NCBI GenBank assembly: GCA_964399055.1
Contig: CAYNPJ010000004.1
Span: forward strand, 11,158 to 75,157
Length of the DNA: 64,000 nt
Direction of reading: 5' to 3'
From: an uncultured Ignavibacteria bacterium
GTDB taxonomy: Bacteria > Zixibacteria > MSB-5A5 > DSPP01 > RBG-1
A program made the position numbers and the translations under genes. Below the pieces are notes generated by a model, which was given only the letters and a program-made list of their open reading frames with translations, was not told where the DNA came from and did not search any database. Below, piece after piece: positions 236 to 27,348 of the stretch; position 1 is the stretch's first letter; each line of letters opens with the position of its first letter.

Positions 236-1474
236 TTAAGGTCTCACGACACCTAACTTCCTGAGCAATCTATTCTTACGATAATAAAGGCTTTCCAAAA
301 GTCCGTTTCCTGCCTGTAATGACAAGGAGACATTCAAATTATCAATCGCCCGCTCTACCAGTTTAAGCGCCTGCGGATACTGTCTAATGCGGTGCTCGTA
401 AAATTTGGCTAACTCCAAATAGGGCTCCAGGCAGAATCTATTATTCTCTGTGATTATTTGCCGCCAGATTGCTTCAGCCTTATCCCACTTTGCAGTCCGC
501 TTGTAGAGTCTTCCCAGCCAGAGAAGGCTGTCCATGAAAGAATCCTCGGAAGAGCCTTTCTCCTGAGATTTTTCCCAGCATAGAACAGCTCTCTCATACT
601 GGCCGGAGTAATAGAATTGCCGGCCCAAACTGAGCAAGTCCTCCGGATGTAATATTTCCAATTTTTCTGGTCTTTCCAAAATCTCACATAGATGAGCCAA
701 TAGACCAGCCATGGAGATAATGTCATATGCGTTATGCTCAGTAATAAGTTTAATTTTTTCTCTTTCCCCGCTGCGCAGGAAATCAAAATATGCCTGCGGT
801 ATCAGATAGCTGGGAATATCGAATTCTCTTGCCACTCCTAATATTTCTCTCTCTAAATTAGAGAGGCTGCAATCCTTGACTCTTCTCTTCCACACCCGCC
901 GGGCCGGAAAGAGCAAATCTAAGTGGCCCTCAAATTCCAGAGAGGCCTTGATGCGATTGAGTATGTATCTGGTCTTAAGAATGGGGATGTCGTAACCTTT
1001 GCCGTTATAGGTAACAATGTATGGATAGCTGGATAGCAACTCCGACAAATCGGCCAGCAAAGCTCTTTCCTCCCCATAATCCCGCATGAAAAACTGCCTC
1101 AAAACAAATTTATCAAGAGCAAAGTAGCCGACCCCCACCAGAAAGGGATGAGTGCCGGAGCCGCCCGCCAGGCCGGTAGTTTCGGTGTCTAAAAAGATGG
1201 TTTTGCTCAAATCTATTTCCTGCGAAAGCTGAGTTTTGGCTAAAAGAGTGATAGACCCGGAATCAGCGCTCAACAGGTCAGAAATAACCACCGACCCATG
1301 CTGGTAGGATGGTCTGTATTCCTTCTCAATGAGTACATATTCCCCCTTGGAATTAGAAATCACTCTACCATTCAGGAAATCAACCAGCGAAGAGTCCTTT
1401 TCCACCCTCTCTTTCTTTTCAGTTCTAATTAATCCCAGGCTCTTCAAACTTTGCAAGCGTTCCTGTAAATCCAT
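236..1474 (-). CDS. RNase H-like (DEDD-type, YprB/PF13482-like) predicted 3'-5' exonuclease fused to C-terminal TPR repeats
   Basis: FLDTETTGL exonuclease motif in the N half; TPR-like repeats (WLGRLYKRTAKWDKAEAIWRQ..., AKFYEHRIRQYPQALKLVERAI) in the C half; 5-nt gap to the upstream gene suggests an operon. Confidence 0.6.
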   Translation of the reverse strand: MDLQERLQSLKSLGLIRTEKKERVEKDSSLVDFLNGRVISNSKGEYVLIEKEYRPSYQHGSVVISDLLSADSGSITLLAKTQLSQEIDLSKTIFLDTETTGLAGGSGTHPFLVGVGYFALDKFVLRQFFMRDYGEERALLADLSELLSSYPYIVTYNGKGYDIPILKTRYILNRIKASLEFEGHLDLLFPARRVWKRRVKDCSLSNLEREILGVAREFDIPSYLIPQAYFDFLRSGEREKIKLITEHNAYDIISMAGLLAHLCEILERPEKLEILHPEDLLSLGRQFYYSGQYERAVLCWEKSQEKGSSEDSFMDSLLWLGRLYKRTAKWDKAEAIWRQIITENNRFCLEPYLELAKFYEHRIRQYPQALKLVERAIDNLNVSLSLQAGNGLLESLYYRKNRLLRKLGVVRP

Positions 1475-1478
1475 ACTT

Positions 1479-4412
1479 TTATCTCTTGAATTTATTTAGA
1501 ATTAATGCCAATTTCCCAGTTATGAAAGGGTGCTTCTCCTTCTCTTTCAATAGATTCAACTTGATTGCGTTTTCCATATTATCCGACCCCCCTAAAGCCT
1601 CAATTGTTGTTCCTTTCCCTCTCCAATTTTCTCTGTCATAAACCTGCCACAAGTAGTTACTAGCTGCCTGAGTTTTAGTTTTCCCCAGAGCTGATATGCA
1701 CAGAAGTCTCTTATCTCTTAACAGAGAATTTTCATATTCCCATTTCAGTTGCCCAACTGCTTTCTCTCCCAATTTACCTAATGCCTCCACTGCCGCCATC
1801 AGCACCGAGTAGTGCGGATCATCCAGAGCATAAATAAGATAATCCACTCCCCGCTCATCCTGCAGTTCCCCTAATGCATAGACCGAAGATTTTCTGACCA
1901 CTTCAACAGAATCAGATAACGCAAAAGCAACCCAGTTAAATGCGGAAGTATCTTTGGCATTTCCGATGGCCGTCAGAGCATATCCCCGCACCTGATAATC
2001 AGGATGATTGAGGATATCTATTAAATAGGGAACAGCGACAGTATCTTTCAGCTCACCCAATACCCGGCAGGCGTTCCTGAGCTTCCAATTATCTTCATTT
2101 TGCAATTCGCCTAATACTGAAGCGACCGGCAAAGTTGCCTCCGGAATTTTGCCTAATATATCCACCAGGGTTTGAATCTCTCTGGCATCTCTGGAATCAA
2201 GTTTCTTAACTAAATAAGGAATGGAATTTTCCTTCATCTCTCTCAGAGCCTGTTTTGCCGGCTCTACCCTATCCAAATGCTCCACATTAATGGCAGTTGC
2301 CTGGATAAAGAGTGAATCCACCAGCACTTTGAGGGATTCATTCTCCGGCTGAGTGGCAGTTTTCATTGCCTTTTCCCAGTCAGCCATATGAAAGGCCGGA
2401 AGGCCTGGCATTTTGAAATGGCGCTCAGTTGTGGATATTGTCTCAGGCTCAGAATAATATTCAGCCAAATCTTCTTCCTTCAAATCCAGCCCTATCCCCC
2501 ACTTTGAGCCAATCGACCACCAGGAGCCTTCTGAGCCATTGCCGGAATAATTATCATTTCCTTTCAAATCTAAAAACAAACCTATCGAGCCAAATTCCCT
2601 TCTGGGATTGCCATAGCCTCGAGTGTTGGATTTCTCTTTAGCGTAATAGCCATCATCCCCGGCCTGGTCAATCAAGATTCCGAAGCCATTTGCATTCCCT
2701 GCCCCTTGGGATAAGCCGTTGGCGTAATAATTATCATTTCCAGCTTTATCTAACAAAATCCCGGCTGAGTAATCATGCCCGCAACCCTGACCAACGCCAT
2801 TGACGCGATAAATGTCATCCCCGGCTGCATCGACTAAAGTGCCTAAAGTCATGTGCGTGCCGCAGCCCTGCGCATACTGAAAGCAGGAGTAGTAGTCATT
2901 TCCTTCTTTATCATACAGCCCTCCCCAGCCCCACCAGTAAGAGCTTCCCTGGCCGAAGATGTCCGCATTGTAGATGTCATTGCCGGAGTAGTCGAAGAGT
3001 AAACCAATACCGCCGGACATATAGGGCCTGATGCCATAGGCAAAACCCTGGGAAAGTGAGAGGTAGTGGTCTTTGTATCTTAAAATGTCCTTGTATTTCC
3101 CTCCGGCGAAGTAATTGTCGCTGCCCGATCTGTCAATCAACATCCCGCAGCCAGCCACAAAGCCGAAGCCCTGAGAGAAAAGCGCGCCATTATATGTATC
3201 CGTGCCTTCCAAATCAATCAATAGTCCCAGACCCCACCCTCCTGCTCCCTGCGTATAAGTGTCTCCGAAATATTTATCATCCCCCTTTCTGTCTATTAAT
3301 ACGCCGATTCCAAACAAACCTGAGCCCAGACTGAAATTCTTACCTATGTATGTATCATTTCCCTCTTCGTCAATGAGAATACTCCCACCAAAAAATCCCG
3401 AGGCAATGGCAAAATCAGACTTCGCTCTGTATATATCATCTCCGCTCAGATCAAGTATTGTTTGCATGCATACCAGAGAATCGTATTCCAGTTCATACAC
3501 GTCATCACCACCCAAATCAATAATCAAGGCAGGACTGCCATAGTAATAAGAACTACCGGTTCCACCAATTAAGATATCACCTATTTTAGTCTTGCCATGA
3601 AAAATGATATCATTCACTTCTTGCTTATTTTCCTCTCTCCACTTAGATCTGTGCGCCTGTTCTTCATTTTCGAAATTTATTGCGGCCTCACCAAGATAAG
3701 CACTTACAAACCACATCCAATGTATCCAATCGAATTTTTCACGGAACTTTGAAATTTGTTTGGCCAGTTCTTCCTCATACTTCTGATTCTGGTCCAGTTT
3801 CTCTGGTGTCTTAAATTGATCATTCACATCTTCCAGAAGTAAAATTGGGGCATTATGCCTTAAGAACATAAAAAGAGAGTCCTGTGGAGGTCGAACATTC
3901 CACACATGTTGCATATATAGAAATAATCGCAGTATGTAATTTGTATCCTTTCCCGTAACCTTCTTGAGGATCTTGTTAGCTTTAAAGAGGTCAGGATACT
4001 CACGCTCAGAGGGCACTCCTTCTAACTCTGTTACATCCCAAGGGTGAGGTTTACGCCTGGGTATTATCTCATTATATTTTTCATGCAAATCTAGTGCTGG
4101 TTCCCAAATAGGATGCGTTAGAAATAGGTCTAACCTTATGTCAGTCATACCACCAAAATTGTAAACAATATCCTTTAGTTCCAGTAAACTCGATATAGTG
4201 AATCCCGGTGTGTGCATAAGGCTATCCATAAGTTTTAGCCTGAAATCGTCCACCTCCGTATAATCATTCCTGAAAGTCAAATCCGCAGGCTTCATCAAAA
4301 GACATTTCAGCCCCAGAGCCAAGGCCGAATCAACTTGAGCGTTATACTTGCTCTGCGCAGACGCAATTCCAAAAAGAAATAGACCGAGCAGAGCAATCGA
4401 CACTTTCCTCAT
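1479..4412 (-). CDS. large secreted multi-domain protein: signal peptide, novel ~270-aa N-domain, ~15 tandem beta-roll/RTX-like 'G-x-L-x-D-x-x-G-N/D-D-x-Y' repeats, C-terminal PBS-lyase-type HEAT repeats
   Basis: ORF 1479..4490 opens with a TTG; an internal ATG at 4412 gives the classic signal peptide MRKVSIALLGLFLFGIASAQS; repeats such as LIDLGGDDVY, LIDEEGNDTY, LIDRKGDDKY, LLDKAGNDNYY, LIDQAGDDGYY; HEAT-like repeats (HPDYQVRGYALTAIGNAKD, DPHYSVLMAAVEALGKLG). Confidence 0.7.
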   Translation of the reverse strand: MRKVSIALLGLFLFGIASAQSKYNAQVDSALALGLKCLLMKPADLTFRNDYTEVDDFRLKLMDSLMHTPGFTISSLLELKDIVYNFGGMTDIRLDLFLTHPIWEPALDLHEKYNEIIPRRKPHPWDVTELEGVPSEREYPDLFKANKILKKVTGKDTNYILRLFLYMQHVWNVRPPQDSLFMFLRHNAPILLLEDVNDQFKTPEKLDQNQKYEEELAKQISKFREKFDWIHWMWFVSAYLGEAAINFENEEQAHRSKWREENKQEVNDIIFHGKTKIGDILIGGTGSSYYYGSPALIIDLGGDDVYELEYDSLVCMQTILDLSGDDIYRAKSDFAIASGFFGGSILIDEEGNDTYIGKNFSLGSGLFGIGVLIDRKGDDKYFGDTYTQGAGGWGLGLLIDLEGTDTYNGALFSQGFGFVAGCGMLIDRSGSDNYFAGGKYKDILRYKDHYLSLSQGFAYGIRPYMSGGIGLLFDYSGNDIYNADIFGQGSSYWWGWGGLYDKEGNDYYSCFQYAQGCGTHMTLGTLVDAAGDDIYRVNGVGQGCGHDYSAGILLDKAGNDNYYANGLSQGAGNANGFGILIDQAGDDGYYAKEKSNTRGYGNPRREFGSIGLFLDLKGNDNYSGNGSEGSWWSIGSKWGIGLDLKEEDLAEYYSEPETISTTERHFKMPGLPAFHMADWEKAMKTATQPENESLKVLVDSLFIQATAINVEHLDRVEPAKQALREMKENSIPYLVKKLDSRDAREIQTLVDILGKIPEATLPVASVLGELQNEDNWKLRNACRVLGELKDTVAVPYLIDILNHPDYQVRGYALTAIGNAKDTSAFNWVAFALSDSVEVVRKSSVYALGELQDERGVDYLIYALDDPHYSVLMAAVEALGKLGEKAVGQLKWEYENSLLRDKRLLCISALGKTKTQAASNYLWQVYDRENWRGKGTTIEALGGSDNMENAIKLNLLKEKEKHPFITGKLALILNKFKR

Positions 4413-4531
4413 AGAAGGACCTGCCGAAAATAATCCCCCTCCTGAACAAATGTCAACTTTTTTCTCTAAAAAGCAAAAGCCCTCTGACAATCGCCAGAGG
4501 GCCCGCCCTCCTATACTTAGCCCACCCCTCT

Positions 4532-5968
4532 CTAAGTCAGCTGATATTTAGCCATTCTATCTCTTAGAGTGTTCCTGCTCACCCCTAAAATCTTGGCCGA
4601 GCGCAGTTGATTGGACTCAGTCTGCTTCAAAACTTTTTCTATCAGCGCTTTTTCTAAGGCCGAGGAGATGTGGTCATAGATATGCCCGTCGGAATTGTCC
4701 ATAATCTTGCCGAAGACCGGTTCTAAAACTTCGGAAAAAAGCTTGTAGTAATCCTGCTGAATCTTCTGGAAGTCAAAGGGGATTCTCTCCCTGGTGTCGG
4801 AATACAGAGGGAAATGCTCCGGCGCCAAGATTTCTCCCTTGCACATCACCACTGCGGTGTGAATGTTGTTCTCTAATTCGCGCACGTTGCCGGGCCAGTG
4901 GTATCTGCCCAGCATCTCTTGAGCTTCCTTGGAGACGGACCTTATCTCTTTCCCCACCTGCGGGGCGTATTTTTTGAGGAAGTGTTTGGCTAAAACCGGT
5001 ATGTCGACTTTTCTTTCCCTCAAGGGAGGTAAATATATGGAGACCACTTTCAGACGGTAGAACAAATCTACCCTGAATTTGTTGTCTTTTATCAGCTCGA
5101 CTAAACTTTTATTAGTGGCAGCGATTACCCGGACATCCACCTTTATGGTCTCATTCCCCCCCACCCGCTCGAACTCCTGTTCTTGAAGGACGCGTAAGAC
5201 TTTGCTCTGGGTGACTAAGGACATGTCGGCGATTTCGTCCAAGAAAATAGTGCCATTGTGGCATTGTTCGAATTTTCCAATCTTGCGGGCATAGGCGCCG
5301 GTGAAGGCCCCTTTTTCATGGCCGAATAATTCTGATTCAAGTAAAGTCTCTGGCAGGGCCGCGCAGTTGACTGACAAAAAAGCCTTGTCGGCCCGGCGCG
5401 AATTGCGGAAAATGGCCCGGGCTACTAATTCTTTGCCAGTTCCGGATTCCCCCATGATTAATACTGAAGCGTCGGTTTTGGCAACCTGTCCAATTAATTT
5501 GGCTATCTCTACTATTTCCGGAGACTGGCCGATTATTTCATTTTCGCTAAACTCTCCGGGTTTGCCTCCGTTAGGGGCACCAGGCTTGCCCAGGTGTTTT
5601 TCCGAGAGGGCTTTGCGGACTTCACCAGCCACCTTTTCTAAGGTAAAAGGCTTAGTGATATAATCAAAAGCCCCCTCTTTCATAGCTTCGATGGCCGATT
5701 CAGTGGAGACGTAGCCGGTCAGGATAATGACCGGGACCTTGCCGTCAGTGGTCTTTATCTTTCTTAAGACTTCCAAGCCGGACATTCCCGGAAGATTCAA
5801 GTCTAAAAGAACTACGTCGGGCTGAAGTTCCGGTAGTTTGGCTAAGGCATCTTCCCCTTTTTCAAAGGAGAGCAGGCTGAATTCAGGAGGGGCTAAAAAC
5901 TGGGAAAGGGTCCCGCTTACTGCCGGGTCGTCATCAATCAGAAAGACCTTGGGAGTCTGCAGAGTCAT
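4532..5968 (-). CDS. sigma-54-dependent Fis-family response regulator (NtrC-like enhancer-binding protein), orphan with no adjacent kinase
   Basis: Receiver domain (VFLIDDDPAV...LLDLNLPGMSG); Pro/Gly-rich linker (GKPGAPNGGKPG); AAA+ motifs ESGTGKELVARAIF and GAFTGA; C-terminal HTH (KILGVSRNTLRDRMAKY). Confidence 0.9.
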   Translation of the reverse strand: MTLQTPKVFLIDDDPAVSGTLSQFLAPPEFSLLSFEKGEDALAKLPELQPDVVLLDLNLPGMSGLEVLRKIKTTDGKVPVIILTGYVSTESAIEAMKEGAFDYITKPFTLEKVAGEVRKALSEKHLGKPGAPNGGKPGEFSENEIIGQSPEIVEIAKLIGQVAKTDASVLIMGESGTGKELVARAIFRNSRRADKAFLSVNCAALPETLLESELFGHEKGAFTGAYARKIGKFEQCHNGTIFLDEIADMSLVTQSKVLRVLQEQEFERVGGNETIKVDVRVIAATNKSLVELIKDNKFRVDLFYRLKVVSIYLPPLRERKVDIPVLAKHFLKKYAPQVGKEIRSVSKEAQEMLGRYHWPGNVRELENNIHTAVVMCKGEILAPEHFPLYSDTRERIPFDFQKIQQDYYKLFSEVLEPVFGKIMDNSDGHIYDHISSALEKALIEKVLKQTESNQLRSAKILGVSRNTLRDRMAKYQLT

Positions 5969-6158: not shown

Positions 6159-6881
6159 TTACTTCTTACGTCTTAATCTGGCAAAACCGGCTGCACCTAA
6201 GAGGCCGCTGCCAAAGAGAAATAGAGTGGCCGGTTCAGGCACTTCAGGCGGAGTCTCACACAGGTCGGTGCCGTAAACAAATTTGACGTTCCTGATTTTG
6301 GCGCTGGGGTCAAAATAGGAAGAAATGCCGCTCAAGGTGAATACTACCTGATTCTGGATTAGAGCGTTACTTCCAGTAACCGCGGCATTCCCGGAAAATA
6401 AATTATCTGCGGCAGAGGTGATACCGTATTGCAATCCGTCAGGCGAATCAGGGCCTTGCAGATTAGGGCCCGGGAACCTGTCCCCTGACCCGAACAGGCC
6501 AAAGCCGGCAGAGCTTATGCCGTAGCGACCCAATCCATAGTTAGGAAAGCTGGAACTGTACCGAAAAGCCCACTCTCCGCCTACGTTGCCTCCATTAGAA
6601 GGGCCGTAGAATACAGATGAGCCTCCGCCCAGAGCGGCAGAGACCCTGCTTAGAGATGGATTGTACCTAATGTCGAAGAATACCGCGGTAAGCACTTCAT
6701 TGGGTGCCGTGACGTCAGCTGAGGAAGTGTTAGTCAGGGTGATTTGCAGATTTCCACTGACCACAGCAAATATAGCGCTGGCCGCCAGACTGCCACTGGA
6801 CCAGTTGTAAGTGAAAGGCACAGCCAAAGCCGTACCGCTGATTAATAGGGAAAGTAAAATCCCTGCTTTTATGAGCCTCAT
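6159..6881 (-). CDS. PEP-CTERM domain secreted protein (exosortase substrate)
   Basis: N-terminal signal peptide; C-terminal VPEPATLFLFGSGLLGAAGFARLRRKK (PEP motif, TM helix, basic tail); AGGAGG RBS. Confidence 0.9.
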   Translation of the reverse strand: MRLIKAGILLSLLISGTALAVPFTYNWSSGSLAASAIFAVVSGNLQITLTNTSSADVTAPNEVLTAVFFDIRYNPSLSRVSAALGGGSSVFYGPSNGGNVGGEWAFRYSSSFPNYGLGRYGISSAGFGLFGSGDRFPGPNLQGPDSPDGLQYGITSAADNLFSGNAAVTGSNALIQNQVVFTLSGISSYFDPSAKIRNVKFVYGTDLCETPPEVPEPATLFLFGSGLLGAAGFARLRRKK

Positions 6882-7019: not shown

Positions 7020-7658
7020 TTACTTTTTCCGGCGAAGCTTCGAAAATCCGGCTGCGCTTAGGAGTCCGCTGCCTAAGAGTAACATGGTGGCCGGCTCAGG
7101 AATTTCAGGTGTACGTCCTGGACCATACCAAGCAGTGTTTCCGTCAATCTCTTCTCTGTAGTAACCCCAGTCGAGGTGAACCAGGTATTTGGTAGTGGCT
7201 GGATTCAAATTGCATCCAGTGCCATTGAAGTCTGCCACCAGAACATTGGTGCAATCCCCTTTATGAATATAGTCGACTGGTGACCCGGTATGGGTTCCGA
7301 AAACACCTTTGGGTCTTTCGTAGCCGCCGTTGAAGTCCCAGTTGGCTATGGTAGTAACGCCGGCTGTCGTACCCCACCCAGGAACCGCAGCTTCCAAATC
7401 TGGTCCTTGATTACCGTTCTCCAAATAGACCGCAAGGGCTTTAATTCCACCGACGTTAATGATACCGCCAATTGGGGCTCCTGCATCAACGCAGACCTGG
7501 AAGGTCCAGACATTGGCAGGACCCTGAGTGCCCGTTACTGAAACAAAGCTCAAAGTCCCTGCTGAAGCGTTCAGACTTGGCCAGGGGTCAGCGTTTACGG
7601 TTGCTGCTGTCAAAACCAAAACCAGTCCCAGGATTGCCAGCAGAGTTAACTTCTTCAT
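7020..7658 (-). CDS. PEP-CTERM domain secreted protein (exosortase substrate)
   Basis: Start moved to the internal ATG at 7658 (MKKLTLLAILG..., signal peptide) preceded by AAGGAGG; C-terminal IPEPATMLLLGSGLLSAAGFSKLRRKK. Confidence 0.88.
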   Translation of the reverse strand: MKKLTLLAILGLVLVLTAATVNADPWPSLNASAGTLSFVSVTGTQGPANVWTFQVCVDAGAPIGGIINVGGIKALAVYLENGNQGPDLEAAVPGWGTTAGVTTIANWDFNGGYERPKGVFGTHTGSPVDYIHKGDCTNVLVADFNGTGCNLNPATTKYLVHLDWGYYREEIDGNTAWYGPGRTPEIPEPATMLLLGSGLLSAAGFSKLRRKK

Positions 7659-7719
7659 TGATTCCTCCTTAAAGATTTGAATTGGTTTCAAGTTATAATT
7701 CTTCATGCAGAATTAAATC

Positions 7720-7737
7720 AGCAACCGTTATGCCAAT
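7720..7737 (-). promoter_or_regulatory. sigma-54 (RpoN) promoter, -24 TGGCAT / -12 TTGCT, driving the PEP-CTERM genes
   Basis: Reverse complement of 7721-7737 is TTGGCATAACGGTTGCT, matching TGGCAC-N5-TTGCW in spacing and the GG/GC dinucleotides; about 60 nt upstream of the ATG at 7658. Confidence 0.7.
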
Positions 7738-11249: not shown

Positions 11250-11975
11250 ATGAAACGGTTTGGCATTATTGCCCTGATTTTGACATTAGCCGCGGCAAGT
11301 ACAATTTGGGCTCAGGAAGACACCGCCCAGGTTACTCTGCGTATAACCTCCAATCCTCCGGGCGTTACCGTTAATCTGGATGGACCTTACCAACTCACGA
11401 CCACGACTCCATCTGACATTACCCAGGAGTTAATGGGAACTTACAGAGTCAAAGCTGAAAAATTCGGATATGAGTCCTGGAACTCCTACATCACTTTGAC
11501 ACCGGACCAGCCTGCCAGTTTGAGGATATCACTTTCGCCCAAGACCAGAATCAAAGCCGCCTTCAGGTCGGTACTCCTTCCTGGCTGGGGACAGTTTTAC
11601 AGTGATCGAAAGGGATGGGGATATTTCTTCGCGACCGGAAGCCTGGTCATGGCGACCGGTTTTGTTCTGGCGGATTTGCACTACAGCAATGAATATGATG
11701 ATTACTTGGACGCCAAAAAAGAATTCGAAGAGGCCGTCAGTATCGAAGAGAAGACTAAGCTGAAAGAGAAGCTGGATGACCGGCAGAGCAAGGCTTACGA
11801 TGCCCAGAAGTTAAGAAATGCGGCCCTCGGGGTGGGTATCGCCTTCTGGGCTTACAATGTGCTGGATAATATAATCTTCTTCCCTTCGGTACAGAGTGGC
11901 GTATTTGAGAAACTATCGACGGACTTTGACCCCAATACCGGGCAGGTCAGGCTGACCTACAATTACTCTTTCTGA
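11250..11975 (+). CDS. PEGA-domain membrane protein (signal peptide, PEGA domain, TM segment, coiled region)
   Basis: VTLRITSNPPGVTVNLDG...YRVKAEKFGYESW matches the PEGA consensus; hydrophobic helices follow. Confidence 0.55.
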   Translation: MKRFGIIALILTLAAASTIWAQEDTAQVTLRITSNPPGVTVNLDGPYQLTTTTPSDITQELMGTYRVKAEKFGYESWNSYITLTPDQPASLRISLSPKTRIKAAFRSVLLPGWGQFYSDRKGWGYFFATGSLVMATGFVLADLHYSNEYDDYLDAKKEFEEAVSIEEKTKLKEKLDDRQSKAYDAQKLRNAALGVGIAFWAYNVLDNIIFFPSVQSGVFEKLSTDFDPNTGQVRLTYNYSF

Positions 11976-11987
11976 AACTTACAAGAG

Positions 11988-13541
11988 ATGAAGAAACTCC
12001 TTTCGGTCTTTTTAATCATAGGCTTGGGCTTAATCTTCTTAAATTGTGAGCGGAAGCTGAAAGACTCTACAGGTCCTGCTTTAAATCTCAATCCGCCACC
12101 CACCCCCAAGAACATAGTTCTGGAAATTGGAGATAAGACCATAAAGCTCAGCTGGAGCGTGGACAGCTTGAACGGCATCAGCTATTTTAAGATTTACCGC
12201 TCTGACTCAGTCGGAGTGGAGCCAAAGTTATACGATTCTACGGCCACTGCCATTACGACCTATACAGACCTGGGACTCAAGAATGGCCAGGAATACTTCT
12301 ATCGAATTAGCTCGGTGGCGACGGACAAATTGGAAGGGTACAAATCGGTCAAGGTCAGCGCTGTTCCTAATCTTTTTGCAGTAACGATAAACAGCGGGGC
12401 TAAATACACTAACAATCGCAGCGTCACTATCGGACTGACCGGTGCCAGCAATACCCGGCATGTGATTATTTCGGAAGATTCTCTTTTCGGAGACGCCTCC
12501 TGGCAGACTTTTTCAGGTTCCAAGAGTTTCACCCTTTCTTTCACCGATGGAACCAAGTATGTCTACGCCAGGTTCCGGGACCAGGACGGCAATGAGAGCT
12601 CTGATTTATACTGGGATGACATAATCCTAGACACCCAGGCCAGCATTAGCAGTGTGACCGAGAATACTGCCGGACAGATTAGACAGGCCGGCCAGATAAT
12701 CCATTTTGCGGTAACCGCCGGAGAGACAGAGGGGACGGCCAGGCTCGATTTGGGGACGGTCAGAGACATAGGGCTCTTTGACGACGGCACTCACGGAGAT
12801 GCCTCTGCCAATGACGGCATCTATGAGCTGGATTACATAATTCCCGCTGATGTAGAAATTGCCGATGCTGTGGTTACAGGGGAATTCACTGACGCAGCCG
12901 GCAATCAGGCGCCATCTAAAACTGCCACAGGCCGGGTGACCATTGCCAAAGCCCCGGGGCCGGTGAATTTATTCGCCCCTTTTGCTGTCCCTAATTCTTA
13001 TAGTTCCATCACCTTAAACTGGTCGACCAGCAATGAGAGCGATTTCTCAGTTTATCGCATCTACCGCTCCACATCTTCCGGAGTGGACTTAAATGACACT
13101 TTGATTGCCAACCTTACCAATAAGTCTACTACAACCTATACGGATACGGCTTTATTTGAAAACACCTGGTACCATTATCGAGTCTTTGTCTTTGATGCCA
13201 ACAACCTCTCTGCTGGTTCGAATGAAGACTCGGCTCGCACCAATCAGAACACTCCGCCGACAGCGGTAGTCTTAGCCACGCCCTCCAGGGTCGATTCCAC
13301 CAGCCTGAAATTGGTGTGGACTCAGAATAGCGACCCTGACTTTGATTCTTATCGGATTTACCGCTCAGTCTCTGCCGGGGTGGATACTCTGGATATGTTG
13401 ATTACAGTAGTCAATCAGGCCGGTACCACCGAATATACTGATGAGAATCTGACAACCGGTCAAAATTATTTCTATCGAGTCTTTGTATTTGATCGCAAAG
13501 GACTTTTTACAGGCTCTAATGAAGTCTCTGCTGCACCCTAG
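11988..13541 (+). CDS. secreted/lipoprotein with three fibronectin type-III domains
   Basis: Signal peptide with Cys (IFLNCERK); recurring FN3 signatures (YFYRISSV, WYHYRVFVFD, YFYRVFVFD). Confidence 0.65.
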   Translation: MKKLLSVFLIIGLGLIFLNCERKLKDSTGPALNLNPPPTPKNIVLEIGDKTIKLSWSVDSLNGISYFKIYRSDSVGVEPKLYDSTATAITTYTDLGLKNGQEYFYRISSVATDKLEGYKSVKVSAVPNLFAVTINSGAKYTNNRSVTIGLTGASNTRHVIISEDSLFGDASWQTFSGSKSFTLSFTDGTKYVYARFRDQDGNESSDLYWDDIILDTQASISSVTENTAGQIRQAGQIIHFAVTAGETEGTARLDLGTVRDIGLFDDGTHGDASANDGIYELDYIIPADVEIADAVVTGEFTDAAGNQAPSKTATGRVTIAKAPGPVNLFAPFAVPNSYSSITLNWSTSNESDFSVYRIYRSTSSGVDLNDTLIANLTNKSTTTYTDTALFENTWYHYRVFVFDANNLSAGSNEDSARTNQNTPPTAVVLATPSRVDSTSLKLVWTQNSDPDFDSYRIYRSVSAGVDTLDMLITVVNQAGTTEYTDENLTTGQNYFYRVFVFDRKGLFTGSNEVSAAP

Positions 13542-13544: not shown

Positions 13545-14390
13545 ATGAACTGGCTTTACAAGCTCAATAATTTCTTTCGCATCTGGGGAGCTACCTTTAA
13601 AGCCATGGGAAAGCTCAAAATCTGGCTCCCCTTGCTAATTCTGCTGATATTGCAGATACTGGTTCTTTTTCAATTAGTCAGATTCTATCAGCCCCAGGTC
13701 TCCTGGCTTTTGGTTCCTTTGTTTAAGTTGATTGCCAGCGAAAGAGCGCTGCACTACCCTCAGTTTTATTTGGCTCTTCCCTATTTGTATAACCTTTTTA
13801 ACTTAGTCCTGATTGGCTTTTTTAGCATTTTTGTCAACGCCCTGGTCATCTGGCTCCTGTCTTCACATTTCTGGGGGAAGAAACTTAGCTACAAGGAGGC
13901 CTGGCAGAACACCAGAACCAGATTCGGACATCTGTTTTTAATCTGGTTTTTTAATACCTTGGTGGCCGCTCTAATTCTGATTCTTCCCGGAGTCTTATTT
14001 TCCAACTGGATGTCCGGCTCTCCCCGGCGGACCTTTTTCATTCAAGCGGCAAGTTTTGGCGCTGGAGTTTTGGTCTCCGGACTTTTCGCCTACTGCTATA
14101 ACTCTATCTTACTTTCCGGGGACGCCTGGCTCAAATCCCTATCAACCAATTTCAGAATTTTCCAGCGCAACTTTTTCTCCACCTGTTTTTTTATTGGCAT
14201 TCCCGGATTGTTGTCCTGGGGTTACGGCATCCTGACCAGCAATACGCCTTTGATAATGTCCAAATTCAGGCCCGACATAGTGCCAGTGCTTTTAGTAATC
14301 GGCTCGGTCATAAATCTTTTGGTGGTCTTCTGGATTTTAGGCTCTTTAGCCCGGCTCTTTCTGTATGAGGTAAAAGAGGTTCAGTTGTGA
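13545..14390 (+). CDS. polytopic integral membrane protein, unknown function
   Basis: Multiple hydrophobic helices; translationally coupled between the FN3 protein and prsK. Confidence 0.5.
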   Translation: MNWLYKLNNFFRIWGATFKAMGKLKIWLPLLILLILQILVLFQLVRFYQPQVSWLLVPLFKLIASERALHYPQFYLALPYLYNLFNLVLIGFFSIFVNALVIWLLSSHFWGKKLSYKEAWQNTRTRFGHLFLIWFFNTLVAALILILPGVLFSNWMSGSPRRTFFIQAASFGAGVLVSGLFAYCYNSILLSGDAWLKSLSTNFRIFQRNFFSTCFFIGIPGLLSWGYGILTSNTPLIMSKFRPDIVPVLLVIGSVINLLVVFWILGSLARLFLYEVKEVQL

Positions 14391-14393: not shown

Positions 14394-16514
14394 ATGTCAG
14401 TTCTCTTTGCCGTAATCGCCAGCCTGACCTTAATCTTCGCCGTAGTAGTACTCCTCCGCAATCCTAAAGAGCTTTCCTTTTGGGCTTTTTTTCTCACCGG
14501 CCTATTCTGGGTCTCAATTTTAGCCGGCATTCTGTTTTCACTGCGCTGGGAGTTTCCTCTCTGGGGCTCTGCTCTTCTGGCTCTGGGGATTAGTTTCCTG
14601 CCCTCCCAGGGGACTTTTTTCAGTTTCTGCTTTGCCAGAGAAAATGTCCGGGAACTGTTAAAGCGCTGGCAGTGGTTTCTGGGGCTGACTTACGCCTTCA
14701 GTATAGTTTTTTTCATCTTAGCCCTGCAGGGGAAAGTTTACGCCTTAGGAGTCGGGGAAGTCGAAGGAAAACTGCTATTGGCCTATACCAATCCGGGACG
14801 GCTCTTTCTGGCTTTCCTCTTCTTGACTACTCTGGTCAGCTTAGTCAATTTGGAAAACACTTATCGTCTATCCAAGGGTAAAGAGCGCTCCCGCTTAAAA
14901 TTGCCTCTCACTCTGTCGGTCTCTGCTTACGCCTGGTTGATTTATTCTCTGACCAGTTCCTTCGTATTGGGCTATCTGCAATACTGGGTTTTGCAGGTGG
15001 GTTTTCTCTTAATCTTGGCGGCTCTGATTTCAACCGGCGTTTATCAGCTCAAACAGAGCACTCATCTGCCGGCAATCTATATGGGGCGGAGACTGGCTTA
15101 TTCCTCAGCCGCTTTTGTGCTGGTGGGACTCTACTTAGTCTTCATCGGCCTGGTGGCCAGTTTCATACCCAAACTGGGCGGGAATTTGCAGATTTTCATC
15201 TCGGTCTTAGCCGCCCTGATGGTCTTGATTGTACTGGTAATCTTGGCCTTCTGGGAGACCTGGAGAAAGAGGCTGGAGCATTTGCTGGAAAGGCTTCTCT
15301 ATCCGGGTAAATTCGATTTTCGCGAGGAGTGGAAGAGATTTTCTGAAAATATCTCGGCTCTGCTGGATTCGGGTGAAATTCAAAAAGAGACCGACAAGGT
15401 CATCCGGGAGAATTTGCGGGTCGACCAGTTGGCAGTATATTCCCGCACCAGCAGGAACAGCGATTTGAGAATCACGCATCACTCCTCAGGCAACTATGAC
15501 CAGCCGCCGGCCCTGCCGCCGGAGGACCCTTTCTGGGGCTGGCTTCTGCGCTATGGGGAGACAGTAGAGAAGAGGCAGATAGAAAGGCTGTTGGAAACTT
15601 ATGCCAGCGGCTCTCAGATTAAACATATTTTAGAGCAGACTAAAGGTGAGGTTATAACTCCCTTGATCGCCAACCGGGAGCTGGAAGGGATGATTATCCT
15701 CTCAGACAAGGAAGAGCAGGAGGCTTATACTAACGAAGATTTCGATCTGTTAAATGCCATCTCCGGACAGGCCGCTCTAGCCCTGTTGAATGCCCGGGTA
15801 GGGCAGGAACTGATTTTAAGCAAGGAGATGGAGTCCTTTCACAAATTTGCGGCCTTTGTGGTTCATGACCTGAAGAATTCCATCTCCATGCTCTCTATGC
15901 TTTTGGCCAATGCCCAGGGGAATCTGAATAACCCTCAGTTTCTGGCCAGCGCCTTGGAGACGGTGGACCAGGCAGTCAAAAAAATGAAGACCCTGGCAGA
16001 TAAACTCTCCTCCCCGCCGGAAGGCAGCACCTTAGTGTTAAGGCAAACGGATTTGAATCAGGTCTGGCAGATGGCGGCCCGGGATTTAAAATTGGAGCTG
16101 CTGCCGAACATAAAAGTGGAGTGGCAGTTAGGCGAGTTACCTCTGGTCAACTGCGACCAGGTTCAGTTGGAGAAGGTCTTTCAGAATCTGTTTTTGAATG
16201 CGGTGGAGGCTATGCCTAAGGGAGGTTCGATTAGAGTTACCACTCAATTCTTTGAGAATCAGAATCATCTTCCGGAAGTACGGATGAGCGTCCGGGATAA
16301 CGGAGTCGGCCTAAGCCCGGAATATCTGCGCACCCGTTTATTCCAGCCCTTTGCCTCCACCAAGAAGTCCGGCTTGGGCATAGGTCTGTTTCAGTCTAAG
16401 GAGATTGTTGAACAACACGGAGGCAGAATCTGGGTGGAGACCTGCGAGGGCAAAGGAACCGTTTTTTACATCACCCTGCCAGTGAAAGCAACAGCAGCAC
16501 CGGTAAACAAGTAG
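14394..16514 (+). CDS. prsK: PEP-CTERM system sensor histidine kinase (PrsK family)
   Basis: About 8 N-terminal TM helices, a GAF-like domain, HisKA (FAAFVVHDLKNSIS) and HATPase_c (GLGIGLFQSKEIVEQHGGRIWVE); immediately upstream of the sigma-54 regulator. Confidence 0.8.
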   Translation: MSVLFAVIASLTLIFAVVVLLRNPKELSFWAFFLTGLFWVSILAGILFSLRWEFPLWGSALLALGISFLPSQGTFFSFCFARENVRELLKRWQWFLGLTYAFSIVFFILALQGKVYALGVGEVEGKLLLAYTNPGRLFLAFLFLTTLVSLVNLENTYRLSKGKERSRLKLPLTLSVSAYAWLIYSLTSSFVLGYLQYWVLQVGFLLILAALISTGVYQLKQSTHLPAIYMGRRLAYSSAAFVLVGLYLVFIGLVASFIPKLGGNLQIFISVLAALMVLIVLVILAFWETWRKRLEHLLERLLYPGKFDFREEWKRFSENISALLDSGEIQKETDKVIRENLRVDQLAVYSRTSRNSDLRITHHSSGNYDQPPALPPEDPFWGWLLRYGETVEKRQIERLLETYASGSQIKHILEQTKGEVITPLIANRELEGMIILSDKEEQEAYTNEDFDLLNAISGQAALALLNARVGQELILSKEMESFHKFAAFVVHDLKNSISMLSMLLANAQGNLNNPQFLASALETVDQAVKKMKTLADKLSSPPEGSTLVLRQTDLNQVWQMAARDLKLELLPNIKVEWQLGELPLVNCDQVQLEKVFQNLFLNAVEAMPKGGSIRVTTQFFENQNHLPEVRMSVRDNGVGLSPEYLRTRLFQPFASTKKSGLGIGLFQSKEIVEQHGGRIWVETCEGKGTVFYITLPVKATAAPVNK

Positions 16515-16523
16515 TTTGAGAAA

Positions 16524-17885: not shown

Positions 17886-18280
17886 CCTTGAATTAACTTT
17901 AGCCAGAGCCGGCGCGCTCGGGGCCCGTCGAATTCACAGAAGAAAATCCCCTGCCAGGTTCCTAATAATAATTTTCCCTTATCAAAGAGGATGCTCTTCG
18001 AAGAGCCGATTAAACTGGCCTTGATGTGAGCATCTGCATTCCCTTCGGTGTGATGATAATCTGCGGAGCGAGGGATGTTTTTCTCGAAAAATTCAAGCAG
18101 GTCGCGTTTGACCGAGGGGTCCGCATTTTCATTGATTGTCACTCCGGCAGTGGTGTGGGGACAATAGATGACGCAAACGCCTGAAGCTATCTTACTTTCG
18201 GAAATGAGAGCTTGAATTCTATCGGTAATGTCCTCCATCTCATTCCTGCGTGAAGTTTTAATTTCCAGTTCTTTAATCAT
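17882..18280 (-). CDS. YjbQ/UPF0047 family protein (secondary thiamine-phosphate synthase-like)
   Basis: Family hallmarks CPHTTAGVTINENADPSV...HHTEGNADAHIKASL; convergent with prsR with a 4-nt overlap. Confidence 0.7.
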   Translation of the reverse strand: MIKELEIKTSRRNEMEDITDRIQALISESKIASGVCVIYCPHTTAGVTINENADPSVKRDLLEFFEKNIPRSADYHHTEGNADAHIKASLIGSSKSILFDKGKLLLGTWQGIFFCEFDGPRARRLWLKLIQG

Positions 18281-19200: not shown

Positions 19201-19208
19201 GGGAGAGG

Positions 19209-22763: not shown

Positions 22764-22767
22764 GAGT

Positions 22768-23511: not shown

Positions 23512-23512
23512 A

Positions 23513-24136: not shown

Positions 24137-24137
24137 C

Positions 24138-24575
24138 TCATGACTCCAGAATGAAGGTCACCGGCCCATCGTTGAAAATCTTGACCAGCATTTTAGAACC
24201 AAATATCCCGGTCTGAATCTTGAGGCCATAGTTTTTCAACAGCTCTACAAATTTATTATACAATTTATCTGCCGAATCCGGCTCTAAGGCTTCATCAAAA
24301 CCCGGCCTGCGCCCTTTCTGGGTGTCTCCGTAAAGGGTGAATTGCGAGATTGCCAAGATTTCTGCCTGCGTATCCAGGGCTGACAGATTCATCTTTCCCT
24401 GCTGGTCTTCAAAGATTCTCAAATTGACGATTTTTTCTGCTAAATACTGGGCGTCTTTTTCCTGGTCGCCCTTTTTGGCGCCGATTAGAATAACCAGTCC
24501 TTTTTTTATCTCTCCGACTGTCTTACCGTCAACTTCGACTCTGGCTTCCTTTACTCTCTGCAGTACGACCCTCAA
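24138..24575 (-). CDS. dtd: D-aminoacyl-tRNA deacylase
   Basis: MRVVLQRV...GLVILIG...SQFTLYGD family signature; 145 aa. Confidence 0.85.
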   Translation of the reverse strand: MRVVLQRVKEARVEVDGKTVGEIKKGLVILIGAKKGDQEKDAQYLAEKIVNLRIFEDQQGKMNLSALDTQAEILAISQFTLYGDTQKGRRPGFDEALEPDSADKLYNKFVELLKNYGLKIQTGIFGSKMLVKIFNDGPVTFILES

Positions 24576-24598
24576 AACTCCTCTAAATTTCAGGGTAA

Positions 24599-27321: not shown

Positions 27322-27348
27322 CTTAGCTTCCACAAAAAAGCCGAGCAC

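What the first reader, a model, noticed from the sequence alone, without database searches (positions are those of the whole stretch)
1479..4412. 1000-aa secreted protein combining an unknown N-domain, ~15 beta-roll-like 'xLxDxxGNDxY' repeats and C-terminal HEAT repeats
After a clean signal peptide, residues ~45-300 have no motif I recognise. Next comes a ~400-residue array of 20-24-aa repeats with the invariant pattern G-[ILV]-L-[IL]-D-x-x-G-[ND]-D-x-Y. This resembles the Ca-binding RTX nonapeptide half-site (GNDxL) and predicts a parallel beta-roll or beta-solenoid. The C-terminal ~250 residues are PBS-lyase-type HEAT repeats. A beta-solenoid fused to HEAT repeats in one secreted polypeptide is an unusual combination. 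The gene is co-oriented and probably co-transcribed with an orphan sigma-54 regulator upstream and an exonuclease-TPR fusion downstream, and it sits next to the PEP-CTERM cargo genes.
Basis: partly seen in the sequence, partly recalled or inferred. Interest (0 to 1): 0.55.

Follow-up and report, generated by a model that had tools for sequence, protein, structure and literature searches.

The report
Exported calcium-type beta-solenoid fused to HEAT partner
This gene is a real, natural fusion of two neighbouring genes that always travel together in Zixibacteria and related phyla: an exported protein built around a previously undescribed 27-residue, RTX-like beta-solenoid repeat, and a HEAT-repeat partner. 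The pair belongs to a large family whose function is unknown.

Summary
The gene lies on the minus strand (1479-4412) and encodes 977 aa. It has a Sec signal peptide, an unannotated helical N-domain, a repeat array carrying D-x-x-G-[NDST]-D-x-Y, and C-terminal PBS-type HEAT repeats.

Corrections:
- There are 12 full repeats, not about 15.
- The period is 27 residues, not 20-24.

The combination is not an oddity. The solenoid protein ('X', about 650 aa) and a signal-peptide-bearing HEAT protein are adjacent, separate genes in 69 of 85 related loci and fused in 8. Many distant relatives are also fused. The family has about 4000 clusters at 50% identity across Zixibacteria, Eisenbacteria, TA06, Delongbacteria and others.

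The fusion is evolutionary, not a sequencing error. The link to the PEP-CTERM/exosortase locus is incidental. Co-transcription with the sigma-54 regulator is unlikely, because a terminator and the gene's own promoter lie between them. Coupling to the downstream exonuclease-TPR gene is conserved.

Function is unresolved. My best guess is a Ca2+-stiffened periplasmic binding platform for an envelope polymer, with the HEAT arm as its obligate partner.

The parts
1479..4412 (-). Whole gene, 977 aa plus stop: signal peptide, helical N-domain, 27-residue-repeat beta-solenoid, linker and HEAT repeats (a fusion of 'X' and its HEAT partner).
   Evidence: ORF list and translation. An identical protein, P0001, is in public data. 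Fused orthologues P0002-P0006 are 972-974 aa.
4353..4412 (-). Sec-type signal peptide, aa 1-20 (MRKVSIALLGLFLFGIASA|Q). No lipobox and no twin-arginine motif.
   Evidence: Read from the sequence. Homologues all carry similar N-terminal hydrophobic leaders.
3618..4352 (-). All-helical N-domain, aa 21-265, with no family match. Only the first ~50 residues are conserved (motif L..AL.C..M...DL.FR.DY...D.FRL). PDZ domains replace part of it in some relatives.
   Evidence: No Pfam or NCBIfam hit at E<=10. AF2 helices. Conservation profile. PDZ fusions.
2478..3617 (-). Beta-solenoid, aa 266-645: an N-cap, 12 units of ~27 aa (xGxGxLxDxxG[ND]DxYx6QGxGxx) and a C-cap. The putative Ca2+ turns are DxxGNDxY. 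A conserved stripe lies on the QG-loop face of turns 6-11 (K441-H449 loop, R462, Y492, W493, Y513, H520, C544, H546, D547, N575, R604, R605).
2328..2477 (-). Fusion linker, aa 646-695. It has low predicted order. It takes the place of the stop codon, the intergenic spacer and the HEAT protein's signal peptide seen in relatives with separate genes.
   Evidence: Junction comparison with L004, L005 and L002. pLDDT below 50 at 649-675.
1482..2327 (-). PBS-lyase-type HEAT repeat domain, aa 696-977, about 8-9 helical hairpins. It is orthologous to the separate ~280-350 aa secreted HEAT protein of relatives.
   Evidence: HEAT_2, HEAT_PBS and HEAT hits. alphaRep PDB hits. AF2 pLDDT 85-95. Separate HEAT genes with their own signal peptides.
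4427..4456 (-). Sigma-70-like promoter match (TTGACA-18-TATTTT) immediately upstream of the gene. A TTGACA hexamer sits at the same place in relatives.
4477..4504 (-). Intrinsic-terminator-like hairpin (12 pairs, 7 G-C, T-tail) directly after the sigma-54 regulator gene. It separates that gene from this one.
   Evidence: Similar hairpins after the regulator are visible in the upstream sequences of L002, L004, L006 and L011 (read by eye).
236..1474 (-). Downstream gene, 4 nt after the stop codon: a DEDDh-type RNase_H_2 exonuclease plus TPR, with no signal peptide. It is a conserved third member of the gene string in Zixibacteria.
   Evidence: Pfam. Directly downstream of HEAT, or of the fusion, in 31 loci. 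Sequence.
4532..5968 (-). Sigma-54-dependent response regulator (NtrC-like). It is not PrsR. It is a frequent upstream neighbour of X in Zixibacteria, often with type IV pilin genes in between.
   Evidence: The genuine PrsK/PrsR pair is at 14394-17885.

Best explanation
Shown:
- The gene is a natural in-frame fusion of a conserved two-gene module.
- Part one ('X') is a Sec-exported protein. It has a variable helical N-domain and a very strongly conserved 12-turn right-handed beta-helix made of a 27-residue repeat that no library describes.
- Part two is a PBS-type HEAT-repeat protein. In most relatives it is a separate, adjacent gene with its own signal peptide.
- The fusion removed that internal signal peptide and replaced it with a ~50-aa flexible linker.
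- The gene has its own sigma-70-type promoter match. It is packed tightly (4-nt spacer) against a conserved downstream exonuclease-TPR gene.

Inferred mechanism:
- Both halves act together as one complex in the periplasm or cell envelope.
- Each DxxG(N/D)DxY turn binds a Ca2+ ion between stacked coils, as in RTX-type solenoids. That would make a rigid rod about 6 nm long.
- The functional surface is not the Ca2+ edge, whose exposed residues vary. It is the opposite 'QG-loop' face of turns 6-11, where non-repeating residues are 80-100% conserved across about 150 diverse homologues (Y492, W493, Y513, H520, C544, H546, D547, N575). Two conserved basic insertion loops flank it (K441-H449 and R604/R605).
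- I take this to be a groove that binds, and possibly processes, a linear envelope polymer. A glycan strand (exopolysaccharide, lipid-linked glycan or peptidoglycan) is the most likely candidate. The HEAT arm and the N-domain would act as protein-recruiting modules.

Confidence by layer: about 0.9 for the architecture and the fusion, about 0.6 for Ca2+ binding, and about 0.3 for glycan or envelope-polymer binding.
For: Gene pair and fusion:
- X and HEAT are adjacent and separate in 69 of 85 loci and fused in 8. The separate HEAT proteins carry signal peptides.
- Junction anatomy.
- Fused orthologues come from separate JGI and Logan contigs.
- Thirteen of the distant 700-1100-aa representatives I scanned with Pfam end in HEAT_2.

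Fold:
- AF2 pLDDT 90.2, pTM 0.92.
- MpAFP region IV is a Ca2+-bound RTX-like beta-helix of thirteen 19-aa repeats, with peptides such as IDAGTGNDEIY (PMC3492233).

Conservation:
- The invariant repeated residues are G, L, D, G, D, Y, Q and G. The turn residues are variable. The repeat-specific invariant stripe lies on the QG-loop side.

Envelope and glycan context, in separate lineages:
- A Bac_transf phosphoglycosyl transferase two to three genes upstream in the window clade.
- TMEM260-like GT-C+TPR, GT2, GT4 and a methyltransferase directly upstream in L034, L042, L052 and L071.
- PMT_2+TPR next to X in Eisenbacteria loci.
- A MurJ/Polysacc_synt_3 flippase overlapping the stop codon by 4 bp in two Delongbacteria-like loci.

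Transcription.
Against: - No experiment and no solved structure exist. Ca2+ binding is inferred only from fold similarity and Asp/Gly-rich turns, and no sequence model of RTX matches.
- I could not inspect model coordinates. The 'stripe' is deduced from repeat register, not measured in 3D.
- The conserved face could simply be the docking site for the HEAT partner rather than a ligand groove.
- Glycan-related neighbours occur in only about 20% of loci. Glycosyltransferases are common genes, so the enrichment is weak.
- Other lineages show quite different neighbours. These include TatC and housekeeping genes (25 loci), type IV pilins (18 loci), PilMN and a secretin, and RibD and NFACT.
- Domain fusions point to peptides or proteins (PDZ, M14, C45) rather than sugars.
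- The conserved cytoplasmic exonuclease-TPR neighbour is unexplained by this model.
Confidence: 0.5

Rival explanations
1. Accessory, tip or adhesin component, or a secreted substrate, of a type IV pilus or type II secretion-like machine. X-HEAT would be made together with pilins and either ride on or pass through the filament system.
For: - One to three type IV pilin-like genes (N_methyl; a weak ComP-like hit) lie directly upstream on the same strand in 18 loci of one Zixibacteria clade. They are usually preceded by the sigma-54 response regulator (PilR-like layout) and followed by an HDOD signalling protein.
- In a TA06-like locus, X::HEAT directly follows a PilM/PilN fusion gene, with two pseudopilins and a secretin nearby.
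- Some relatives carry an N-terminal PDZ domain, as T2SS GspC does (the GspC comparison is from my own knowledge).
Against: - The window locus and its clade have no pilin between the regulator and X.
- No PilMN or secretin lies within 10 kb in any of the other 87 loci searched, or anywhere in the 64-kb window.
- Eisenbacteria relatives in the same subgroup as the TA06 locus lack this context.
- The TatC clade (25 loci) and the Delongbacteria-like and Bacteroidota-labelled lineages have housekeeping neighbours.
Confidence: 0.17
2. Periplasmic adaptor or scaffold for proteolysis or peptide processing (for example control of cell-wall hydrolases or stem-peptide trimming). The solenoid-HEAT unit would present substrates to proteases.
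For: - N-terminal fusions of X to Peptidase_M14 (P0254), to a C45/AAT Ntn-hydrolase plus PDZ (P0264), and to PDZ alone (P0214, P0219, P0233).
- M50 site-2 protease genes lie directly upstream (L022, L025) or three genes downstream (TatC clade).
- HEAT and TPR scaffolds commonly act as protease adaptors (my own knowledge, e.g. NlpI-Prc).
Against: - Such fusions are rare, about 5 of 150 representatives. Several are singletons on short contigs that could be merged gene calls.
- The window protein has no protease or PDZ domain.
- There is no consistent protease neighbour across lineages.
Confidence: 0.13
3. A purely structural Ca2+-dependent adhesin or matrix protein belonging to the neighbouring exosortase/PEP-CTERM exopolysaccharide system. 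This is.
For: - In the window and in L002 the gene sits about 3.6 kb from XrtA, next to two PEP-CTERM proteins and an EPS sugar transferase.
- Beta-solenoid adhesins are among the fold matches: EtpA, HMW1, Ag43 and the MpAFP adhesin.
Against: - XrtA lies within 10 kb only in the window and its closest relative among 86 loci.
- The protein has no PEP-CTERM tail and no recognisable outer-membrane or T9SS sorting signal.
- The PEP-CTERM system's own regulators are elsewhere.
- The family appears as a single gene per locus and often sits among housekeeping genes.
Confidence: 0.1
4. The long ORF is an artefact: two genes joined by a sequencing or assembly error.
For: In the nearest split-gene relatives (L004, L005, L006, L011) X and HEAT are separate genes.
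Against: - Orthologues of the same fused length (972-974 aa, 62-66% identity to the query, which excludes the HEAT repeats) come from separate JGI and Logan contigs.
- L002 shows the same in-frame linker, conserved at protein level.
- The internal signal peptide has been replaced rather than read through.
- Fusions recur in several other lineages.
Confidence: 0.02

Closest known systems
Region IV of the Marinomonas primoryensis ice-binding adhesin (MpAFP/MpIBP RIV, PDB 3p4g): a Ca2+-bound RTX-like right-handed beta-helix
   Same: - Both are long regular parallel beta-helices of about 12-13 coils.
- Both have a Gly/Asx-rich turn containing G-N-D followed by an aromatic or aliphatic residue (X: uDxxGNDxY; MpAFP peptide IDAGTGNDEIY, PMC3492233).
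   Different: - The repeat is 27 residues, not 19, with an extra QGxG loop side.
- There is no detectable sequence homology.
- The exposed turn residues are variable rather than a flat Thr/Asx ice-binding array.
- X has an N-terminal Sec signal rather than T1SS export, and it is not part of a giant adhesin.
- Its partner is a HEAT domain.
Classical RTX beta-roll (HemolysinCabind, PF00353; GGxGxDxUx nonapeptides)
   Same: Asp/Gly-rich turns with a G-[ND]-D core. A parallel beta-solenoid. Ca2+-dependent rigidity is expected.
   Different: - The Pfam model does not match even at E<=10.
- The period is 27 rather than 9 or 18.
- There is one G-N-D turn per coil instead of two.
- X uses a Sec signal peptide rather than a C-terminal T1SS signal.
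Pectin-lyase-fold right-handed beta-helix proteins acting on polysaccharides (PL6 alginate lyases, AlgG epimerase, polygalacturonases, NosD, phage tailspikes)
   Same: - A conserved stripe flanked by insertion loops along the helix, which is how these enzymes build substrate grooves (the stripe is; the comparison is from my own knowledge).
- Periplasmic or extracellular location.
   Different: - No Beta_helix, NosD or PbH1 HMM match.
- The repeat is much more regular.
- No known catalytic constellation was identified.
- The similarity is no better than to any other beta-helix.
PBS-lyase HEAT-like repeat proteins (PF03130/PF13646; CpcE/F, NblB, YibA, alphaRep designs)
   Same: The C-terminal ~280 aa match these repeat models strongly.
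   Different: - Scores are far below the equivalog cut-offs for CpcE, CpcF, NblB and CpeY (48-53 bits against 214-600).
- The domain is exported, whereas those proteins are cytoplasmic.
- There is no phycobilisome context.

Membership tests
RTX / HemolysinCabind (PF00353) | Match to the nonapeptide GGxGxDxUx profile | tested here: not met
   No PF00353 hit for the full protein (E<=0.01) or for the repeat region alone (E<=10).
RTX / HemolysinCabind (PF00353) | 9-residue repeat, 18 residues per beta-roll turn | tested here: not met
   Autocorrelation peaks at 27 and 54. Units are 26-27 aa.
RTX / HemolysinCabind (PF00353) | Type I secretion: C-terminal secretion signal and no N-terminal signal peptide | tested here: not met
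   An N-terminal Sec-type leader is present and the C-terminus is a HEAT domain. No T1SS genes were seen among the neighbours annotated.
RTX / HemolysinCabind (PF00353) | Ca2+ bound in the Gly/Asp turns | not testable with these tools
   Inferred only from invariant D/G/D residues and fold similarity to 3p4g.
MpAFP RIV-type Ca2+-bound beta-helix | Right-handed parallel beta-helix superimposable on 3p4g | tested here: met
   [not shown]
MpAFP RIV-type Ca2+-bound beta-helix | 19-residue repeat with a flat Thr/Asx ice-binding face | tested here: not met
   27-residue repeat. Exposed turn positions +1 and +2 are charged and variable, 14-30% conserved.
PBS lyase HEAT-like repeats (PF03130 / PF13646) | HMM match above the gathering threshold | tested here: met
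   HEAT_2 76.9 bits (cut-off 27.7). HEAT_PBS 41.7 bits (cut-off 20.9).
Phycobiliprotein lyases and NblB (CpcE/CpcF/CpeY/NblB equivalogs) | Score above the NCBIfam equivalog cut-off | tested here: not met
   19-53 bits against cut-offs of 214-600.
PEP-CTERM exosortase cargo | C-terminal PEP-CTERM sorting motif | tested here: not met
   No PF07589 or TIGR02595 hit, whereas both neighbouring genes do hit. The C-terminus reads ...LALILNKFKR.
PEP-CTERM exosortase cargo | Co-occurrence with an exosortase locus in relatives | tested here: not met
   XrtA lies within 10 kb only in the window and in L002 among 86 loci.
Pectin-lyase-fold (PbH1 / Beta_helix / NosD) proteins | PbH1, Beta_helix or NosD profile match, or a specific fold match | tested here: inconclusive
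   [not shown]
X-HEAT module (the uncharacterised family defined here) | Signal peptide, helical N-domain and 12 x 27-aa DxxGxDxY solenoid, with a HEAT protein adjacent or fused | tested here: met

The most novel reading that the evidence does not exclude
X-HEAT may be a previously unrecognised component of the periplasm or cell envelope. It is present across Zixibacteria and in MAGs labelled Eisenbacteria, TA06, Delongbacteria, Stahlbacteria and Calditrichaeota. Its 27-residue Ca2+-solenoid would carry a new conserved active or binding site (Tyr/Trp/His/Cys/His-Asp stripe flanked by basic loops). That site would act on an envelope polymer, or the rod would serve as a rigid periplasmic spacer or scaffold. 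This would be a new functional class of beta-solenoid, not merely another adhesin.
Probability: 0.3. Interest if true: 0.65.

Novelty: new variant of a known kind. Interest (0 to 1): 0.45.

Why it matters
- The family is large: about 4000 clusters at 50% identity and 442 GTDB species representatives.
- It is highly conserved. The solenoid keeps 54-76% identity across most of the 85 related loci compared, and 88% in the closest relative.
- It has no annotation at all. Every source calls it 'hypothetical protein', and there is no Pfam, NCBIfam or PDB relative.
- The organisms that carry it are candidate phyla known only from metagenomes.
- Recognising the obligate solenoid-HEAT partnership, through repeated separate fusions, gives a testable handle: co-expression, complex structure and Ca2+ dependence.
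- A high-confidence model defines a new 27-residue variant of the Ca2+-type beta-solenoid repeat. That variant could be added to domain libraries.
- It may point to an envelope function specific to these lineages.

Tried and rejected
- Translating the + strand at the given coordinates gives only stop codons. The gene is on the - strand.
- Pfam and NCBIfam at E<=10 on the N-domain and on the repeat region separately found nothing meaningful.
- PDB sequence searches with the single protein, with a family profile and with the repeat region alone found only HEAT hits or nothing.
- Foldseek against PDB gave no significant hit (best E 0.23). The afdb50 library was unavailable.
- The first AF2 run, on the full-length protein with 82 close homologues, gave low-confidence loops (pLDDT 70). 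It was superseded by the deeper X-only run.
- A sigma-54 promoter upstream of the gene was not found. No match lies in 4413-4531 and none in five relatives.
- A Tat signal was considered because TatC is adjacent in 25 loci. No twin-arginine leaders are present, so I treat the adjacency as operon neighbourhood only.
- tblastn for PilMN, secretin, CsgG-like, bactofilin-like and pseudopilin proteins from L088 against all other loci and the whole window found none. Only the generic ABC ATPase and FtsX-type permease queries matched a few loci.
- A literature search for Zixibacteria plus HEAT repeat returned nothing relevant.
- An ice-binding role was rejected because the turn residues are variable and charged.
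- The sequencing-error explanation for the fusion was rejected.


Full report
**1. What is at the coordinates**

The feature is a gene on the minus strand. The longest ORF runs 1479-4490 from a TTG. The ATG at 4412 gives a 977-aa protein beginning MRKVSIALLGLFLFGIASAQS, the same start that its orthologues use. Translating the plus strand gives only stop codons. By eye the N-terminus is a Sec signal peptide, with no lipobox cysteine and no twin-arginine motif.

Pfam and NCBIfam recognise only the C-terminus: HEAT_2 at E 1.5e-21, plus HEAT_PBS and HEAT, covering aa ~740-950. Residues 21-700 match nothing, even at E<=10 when the N-domain and the repeat region are submitted separately. PDB sequence searches return only alphaRep/PBS-HEAT designs for the C-terminus. 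They return nothing for the rest, whether the query is the single protein, a family profile or the repeat region alone.

**2. The repeats**

The motif D-x-x-G-x-D-x-[YF] occurs 12 times between aa 299 and 622. Shuffled sequences give 0.06-0.09 on average and never more than 2. Residue autocorrelation has a sharp peak at lag 27 and a second at 54.

The units are 26-27 residues, with three exceptions:
- one of 22;
- one of 47, which carries a conserved insertion (GGKYKDILRYKDHYLSLS);
- one of 33.

The consensus is xGxGxLxDxxG(N/D)DxYxxxxxxQGxGxx.

**3. Family and the nature of the 'combination'**

A search with aa 21-711 found more than 1500 relatives, all annotated 'hypothetical protein' and mostly from Zixibacteria. 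Only the closest few (P0002-P0007, 62-69% identity) have the ~972-aa fused form. Most are ~654 aa with no Pfam domain.

Gene neighbourhoods show that the 650-aa form is followed immediately by a separate 280-350-aa HEAT_2 protein. A scan of one genome per GTDB species found 442 species with a relative. Across the first 85 loci fetched (L001-L085), the counts were:

| State of X and HEAT | Loci (of 85) |
|---|---|
| Adjacent, separate genes | 69 |
| Fused | 8 |
| No HEAT match found (in several of these the contig ends just after X) | 8 |

The separate HEAT proteins carry their own signal peptides.

At the junction, split-gene relatives end X at ...WGVGLDLEMR*. The mature HEAT protein then starts near ...DSLKQLVDSLFI. 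In the window a ~50-aa in-frame linker (aa 646-695) replaces the stop codon, the spacer and the signal peptide. The same linker is conserved in the separately assembled relative L002.

The ORF is therefore a fusion of two genes, but a natural one. Fusion of two genes that are separate neighbours elsewhere is a classic sign that the two proteins work together.

An exhaustive profile search gave these counts:

| E-value threshold | Clusters at 50% identity |
|---|---|
| <=1e-3 | 4002 |
| <=1e-30 | 2075 |

Many representatives are 880-1000 aa. Thirteen of the distant representatives I scanned with Pfam end in HEAT_2. Named members include TA06, Delongbacteria and a Bacteroidota-labelled MAG. GTDB loci add Eisenbacteria, Stahlbacteria, Calditrichaeota and GN15.

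Clustering of the solenoid region places the window with split-gene relatives (L004, L005, L006, L011), which share 74-76% identity in the solenoid. Its fusion is therefore a recent, secondary event. Fusion or fission has happened several times.

**4. Structure**

The first AlphaFold run used the full-length protein with 82 close homologues. It gave a confident HEAT solenoid, but the repeat region had low-confidence loops (pLDDT 70). The second run used aa 21-655 with 148 diverse homologues. It gave pLDDT 90.2 and pTM 0.92.

The model has two parts:
- an all-helical N-domain (aa ~25-258);
- a regular 12-13-turn beta-helix (aa 269-643), with pLDDT 95-99.

MpAFP RIV is a 322-residue Ca2+-bound right-handed beta-helix of thirteen 19-aa RTX-like repeats. 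It contains peptides such as IDAGTGNDEIY (PMC3492233), which resembles the uDxxGNDxY turn here. The protein is nevertheless not a member of the RTX family. It has no HMM match, its period is 27, and it has a Sec leader rather than a T1SS signal.

**5. Where the function probably sits**

Across 148 homologues the N-domain is poorly conserved, apart from its first ~50 residues. The solenoid is extremely conserved. A register-aligned table separates two kinds of conserved residue.

- Residues conserved in every repeat are presumably structural or Ca2+-binding. Numbered relative to the first Asp of each motif, they are G-6, G-4, L-2, D0, G+3, N/D+4, D+5, Y+7, Q+14, G+15 and G+17.
- Residues conserved only in particular repeats are the candidates for function.

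The exposed residues of the Asp-Gly turn (+1, +2) and of the two main strands are variable (14-40% conserved). The third, 'QG-loop' side of turns 6-11 carries non-repeating residues that are 80-100% conserved: Y492, W493, Y513, H520, C544, H546, D547 and N575. Two conserved basic insertions (K441...H449 with R462, and N602-P603-R604-R605) sit in the same angular register.

I infer a continuous conserved stripe along one edge of the helix. I could not inspect the coordinates, so this is deduced from repeat register and not measured. Aromatic, His/Asp and Arg residues flanked by insertion loops are how beta-helix enzymes and binders build grooves for linear polymers (my own knowledge). The same face could instead be the docking surface for the HEAT partner.

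**6. Genomic context**

*In the window.* A 12-bp G+C-rich hairpin with a T-tail (4504-4477) follows the sigma-54 regulator gene. The best sigma-70-like match in the region (TTGACA-18-TATTTT, 4456-4427) precedes the ATG. Five relatives at two levels of divergence keep the TTGACA hexamer just upstream of the start codon, and most show a hairpin with a T-tail after the regulator. None has a -24/-12 element. Co-transcription with the regulator is therefore unlikely. The downstream RNase_H_2 (DEDDh) + TPR gene starts 4 nt after the stop codon. It follows HEAT, or the fusion, in 31 loci. It has no signal peptide, and its link to an exported pair is unexplained.

*The PEP-CTERM link.* This is incidental:
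- XrtA lies within 10 kb only in the window and in L002.
- The protein has no PEP-CTERM tail.
- The true PrsK/PrsR pair lies at 14394-17885.

*Across lineages.* Only HEAT is a constant neighbour of X. Other neighbours vary by clade:

| Lineage or loci | Neighbours of X |
|---|---|
| 25 Zixibacteria loci | TatC directly upstream, then NrdR and housekeeping genes |
| 18 loci of one Zixibacteria clade | Sigma-54 regulator, 1-3 type IV pilins, X, HEAT, exonuclease-TPR, HDOD |
| L034, L042, L052, L071 | TMEM260-like GT-C+TPR, GT2, GT4 and a methyltransferase upstream |
| Eisenbacteria loci | PMT_2+TPR GT-C alongside |
| Two Delongbacteria-like loci | MurJ/Polysacc_synt_3 flippase overlapping the stop by 4 bp |
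| A TA06-like locus | PilM/PilN, secretin and pseudopilins |
| A Bacteroidota-labelled lineage | RibD, a secreted TPR protein and NFACT |

*Rare N-terminal domain fusions.* These add PDZ (P0214, P0219, P0233), C45 Ntn-hydrolase plus PDZ (P0264), Peptidase_M14 (P0254) and a PbH1 Beta_helix (P0230).

All themes concern the cell envelope, but none is universal. The glycan theme has the most separate occurrences. It covers only about 20% of loci, however, which is weak enrichment.

**7. Most likely mechanism and rivals**

*Shown.* This is an exported, naturally fused solenoid-HEAT protein with a new 27-residue RTX-like repeat. It belongs to a large uncharacterised family whose two halves are obligate genomic partners.

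*Inferred:*
- Ca2+ ions are bound at the stacked DxxGNDxY turns, making a rigid rod about 6 nm long (confidence about 0.6).
- A conserved groove on the opposite face binds, or processes, a linear envelope polymer, most plausibly a glycan or peptidoglycan. The HEAT arm and the N-domain would be protein-recruiting modules (confidence about 0.3).

*Rivals:*
- a type IV pilus or T2SS accessory or substrate (0.17);
- a periplasmic protease or peptide-processing adaptor (0.13);
- a structural adhesin of the exosortase system (0.10);
- a sequencing artefact (0.02, effectively excluded).

**8. Comparison with known families, and novelty**

The protein works like, and looks like, a Ca2+-type beta-solenoid (MpAFP RIV, RTX), joined to a PBS-type HEAT scaffold. 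It fails the membership tests for three groups:
- RTX: no profile match, wrong period, wrong secretion route;
- phycobiliprotein lyases and NblB: far below the cut-offs;
- PEP-CTERM cargo: no sorting motif.

It passes only the generic HEAT_2/HEAT_PBS repeat test. I rate it a new variant of a known kind: a new solenoid repeat family with a fixed HEAT partner and unknown function. It is of moderate interest. A specialist would not be shocked by another beta-solenoid. The size, conservation and complete lack of annotation of the family, and the clean fusion evidence for partnership, make it a worthwhile and tractable target.

Noticed in passing
window 7721-7735 (-): A near-consensus sigma-54 -24/-12 element (TGGCATAACGGTTGC, 1 mismatch) lies just upstream of the PEP-CTERM protein gene 7020-7706 (-). 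This fits control by the PrsK/PrsR system encoded at 14394-17885. Such matches are not enriched in the window overall (51 found against 50 expected).
   Followed up: partly
window 14394-16514 (+) and 16524-17885 (+): These are a bona fide XrtA/PEP-CTERM histidine kinase PrsK (334.7 bits, cut-off 300) and response regulator PrsR (571.3 bits, cut-off 502.6). The sigma-54 regulator next to the finding (4532-5968) therefore belongs to a different module.
   Followed up: yes
window 236-1474 (-), and 31 related loci: A cytoplasmic DEDDh RNase_H_2 exonuclease fused to TPR repeats is conserved directly downstream of the exported X-HEAT pair, with a 4-nt spacer in the window. Why a nuclease is linked to an envelope module is unexplained.
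   Followed up: partly
L020, L047, L053, L056-L058, L063, L065, L068, L069, L072, L073, L079, L080 and others (upstream of X): One to three paralogous type IV pilin-like genes (~146 aa, N_methyl motif, weak ComP_DUS hit) lie between a sigma-54 response regulator and X in one Zixibacteria clade. An HDOD protein and a ~650-aa protein with no Pfam match (on the opposite strand) lie downstream.
   Followed up: partly
L034, L042, L052, L071; L046, L050, L054, L055: Bacterial homologues of eukaryotic protein O-mannosyltransferases lie next to X in two lineages. They are TMEM260-like + TPR and PMT_2 + TPR. In the first set of loci they come with a GT2, a GT4 and a methyltransferase. X could be their glycosylation substrate.
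   Followed up: no
P0254, P0264, P0214, P0219, P0233, P0230, P0255 (family representatives): Alternative architectures: Peptidase_M14+X, C45 Ntn-hydrolase+PDZ+X, PDZ+X (three cases), PbH1 Beta_helix+X and RibD+X::HEAT. The last is probably a merged gene call, because RibD is a neighbour in L090. Several are singletons on short contigs.
   Followed up: partly
window 6159-6881 (-): The PEP-CTERM protein here belongs to the XDD4 family of exosortase-dependent surface proteins (220 bits, cut-off 40). The neighbouring PEP-CTERM protein (7020-7706) has no subfamily assignment.
   Followed up: no
window 11250-13541 (+): A PEGA + DUF5683 protein and an fn3-containing protein with a 'choice-of-anchor X' motif follow the EPS sugar transferase. 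An unannotated 281-aa ORF (13545-14390) precedes PrsK.
   Followed up: no
window 18277-27348 (-): A housekeeping block: FtsY (SRP54 GTPase), SMC, a RodZ-like HTH protein, Maf and ClpB.
   Followed up: no
L004, L006, L011 (intergenic regions upstream of X; L004 also between X and HEAT): The intergenic regions contain several short inverted-repeat elements, for example GTCGGG...CCCGAC and CCCTCCCCT...AGGGGAGGG. They look like dispersed REP-like or miniature repeats and recur between loci.
   Followed up: no
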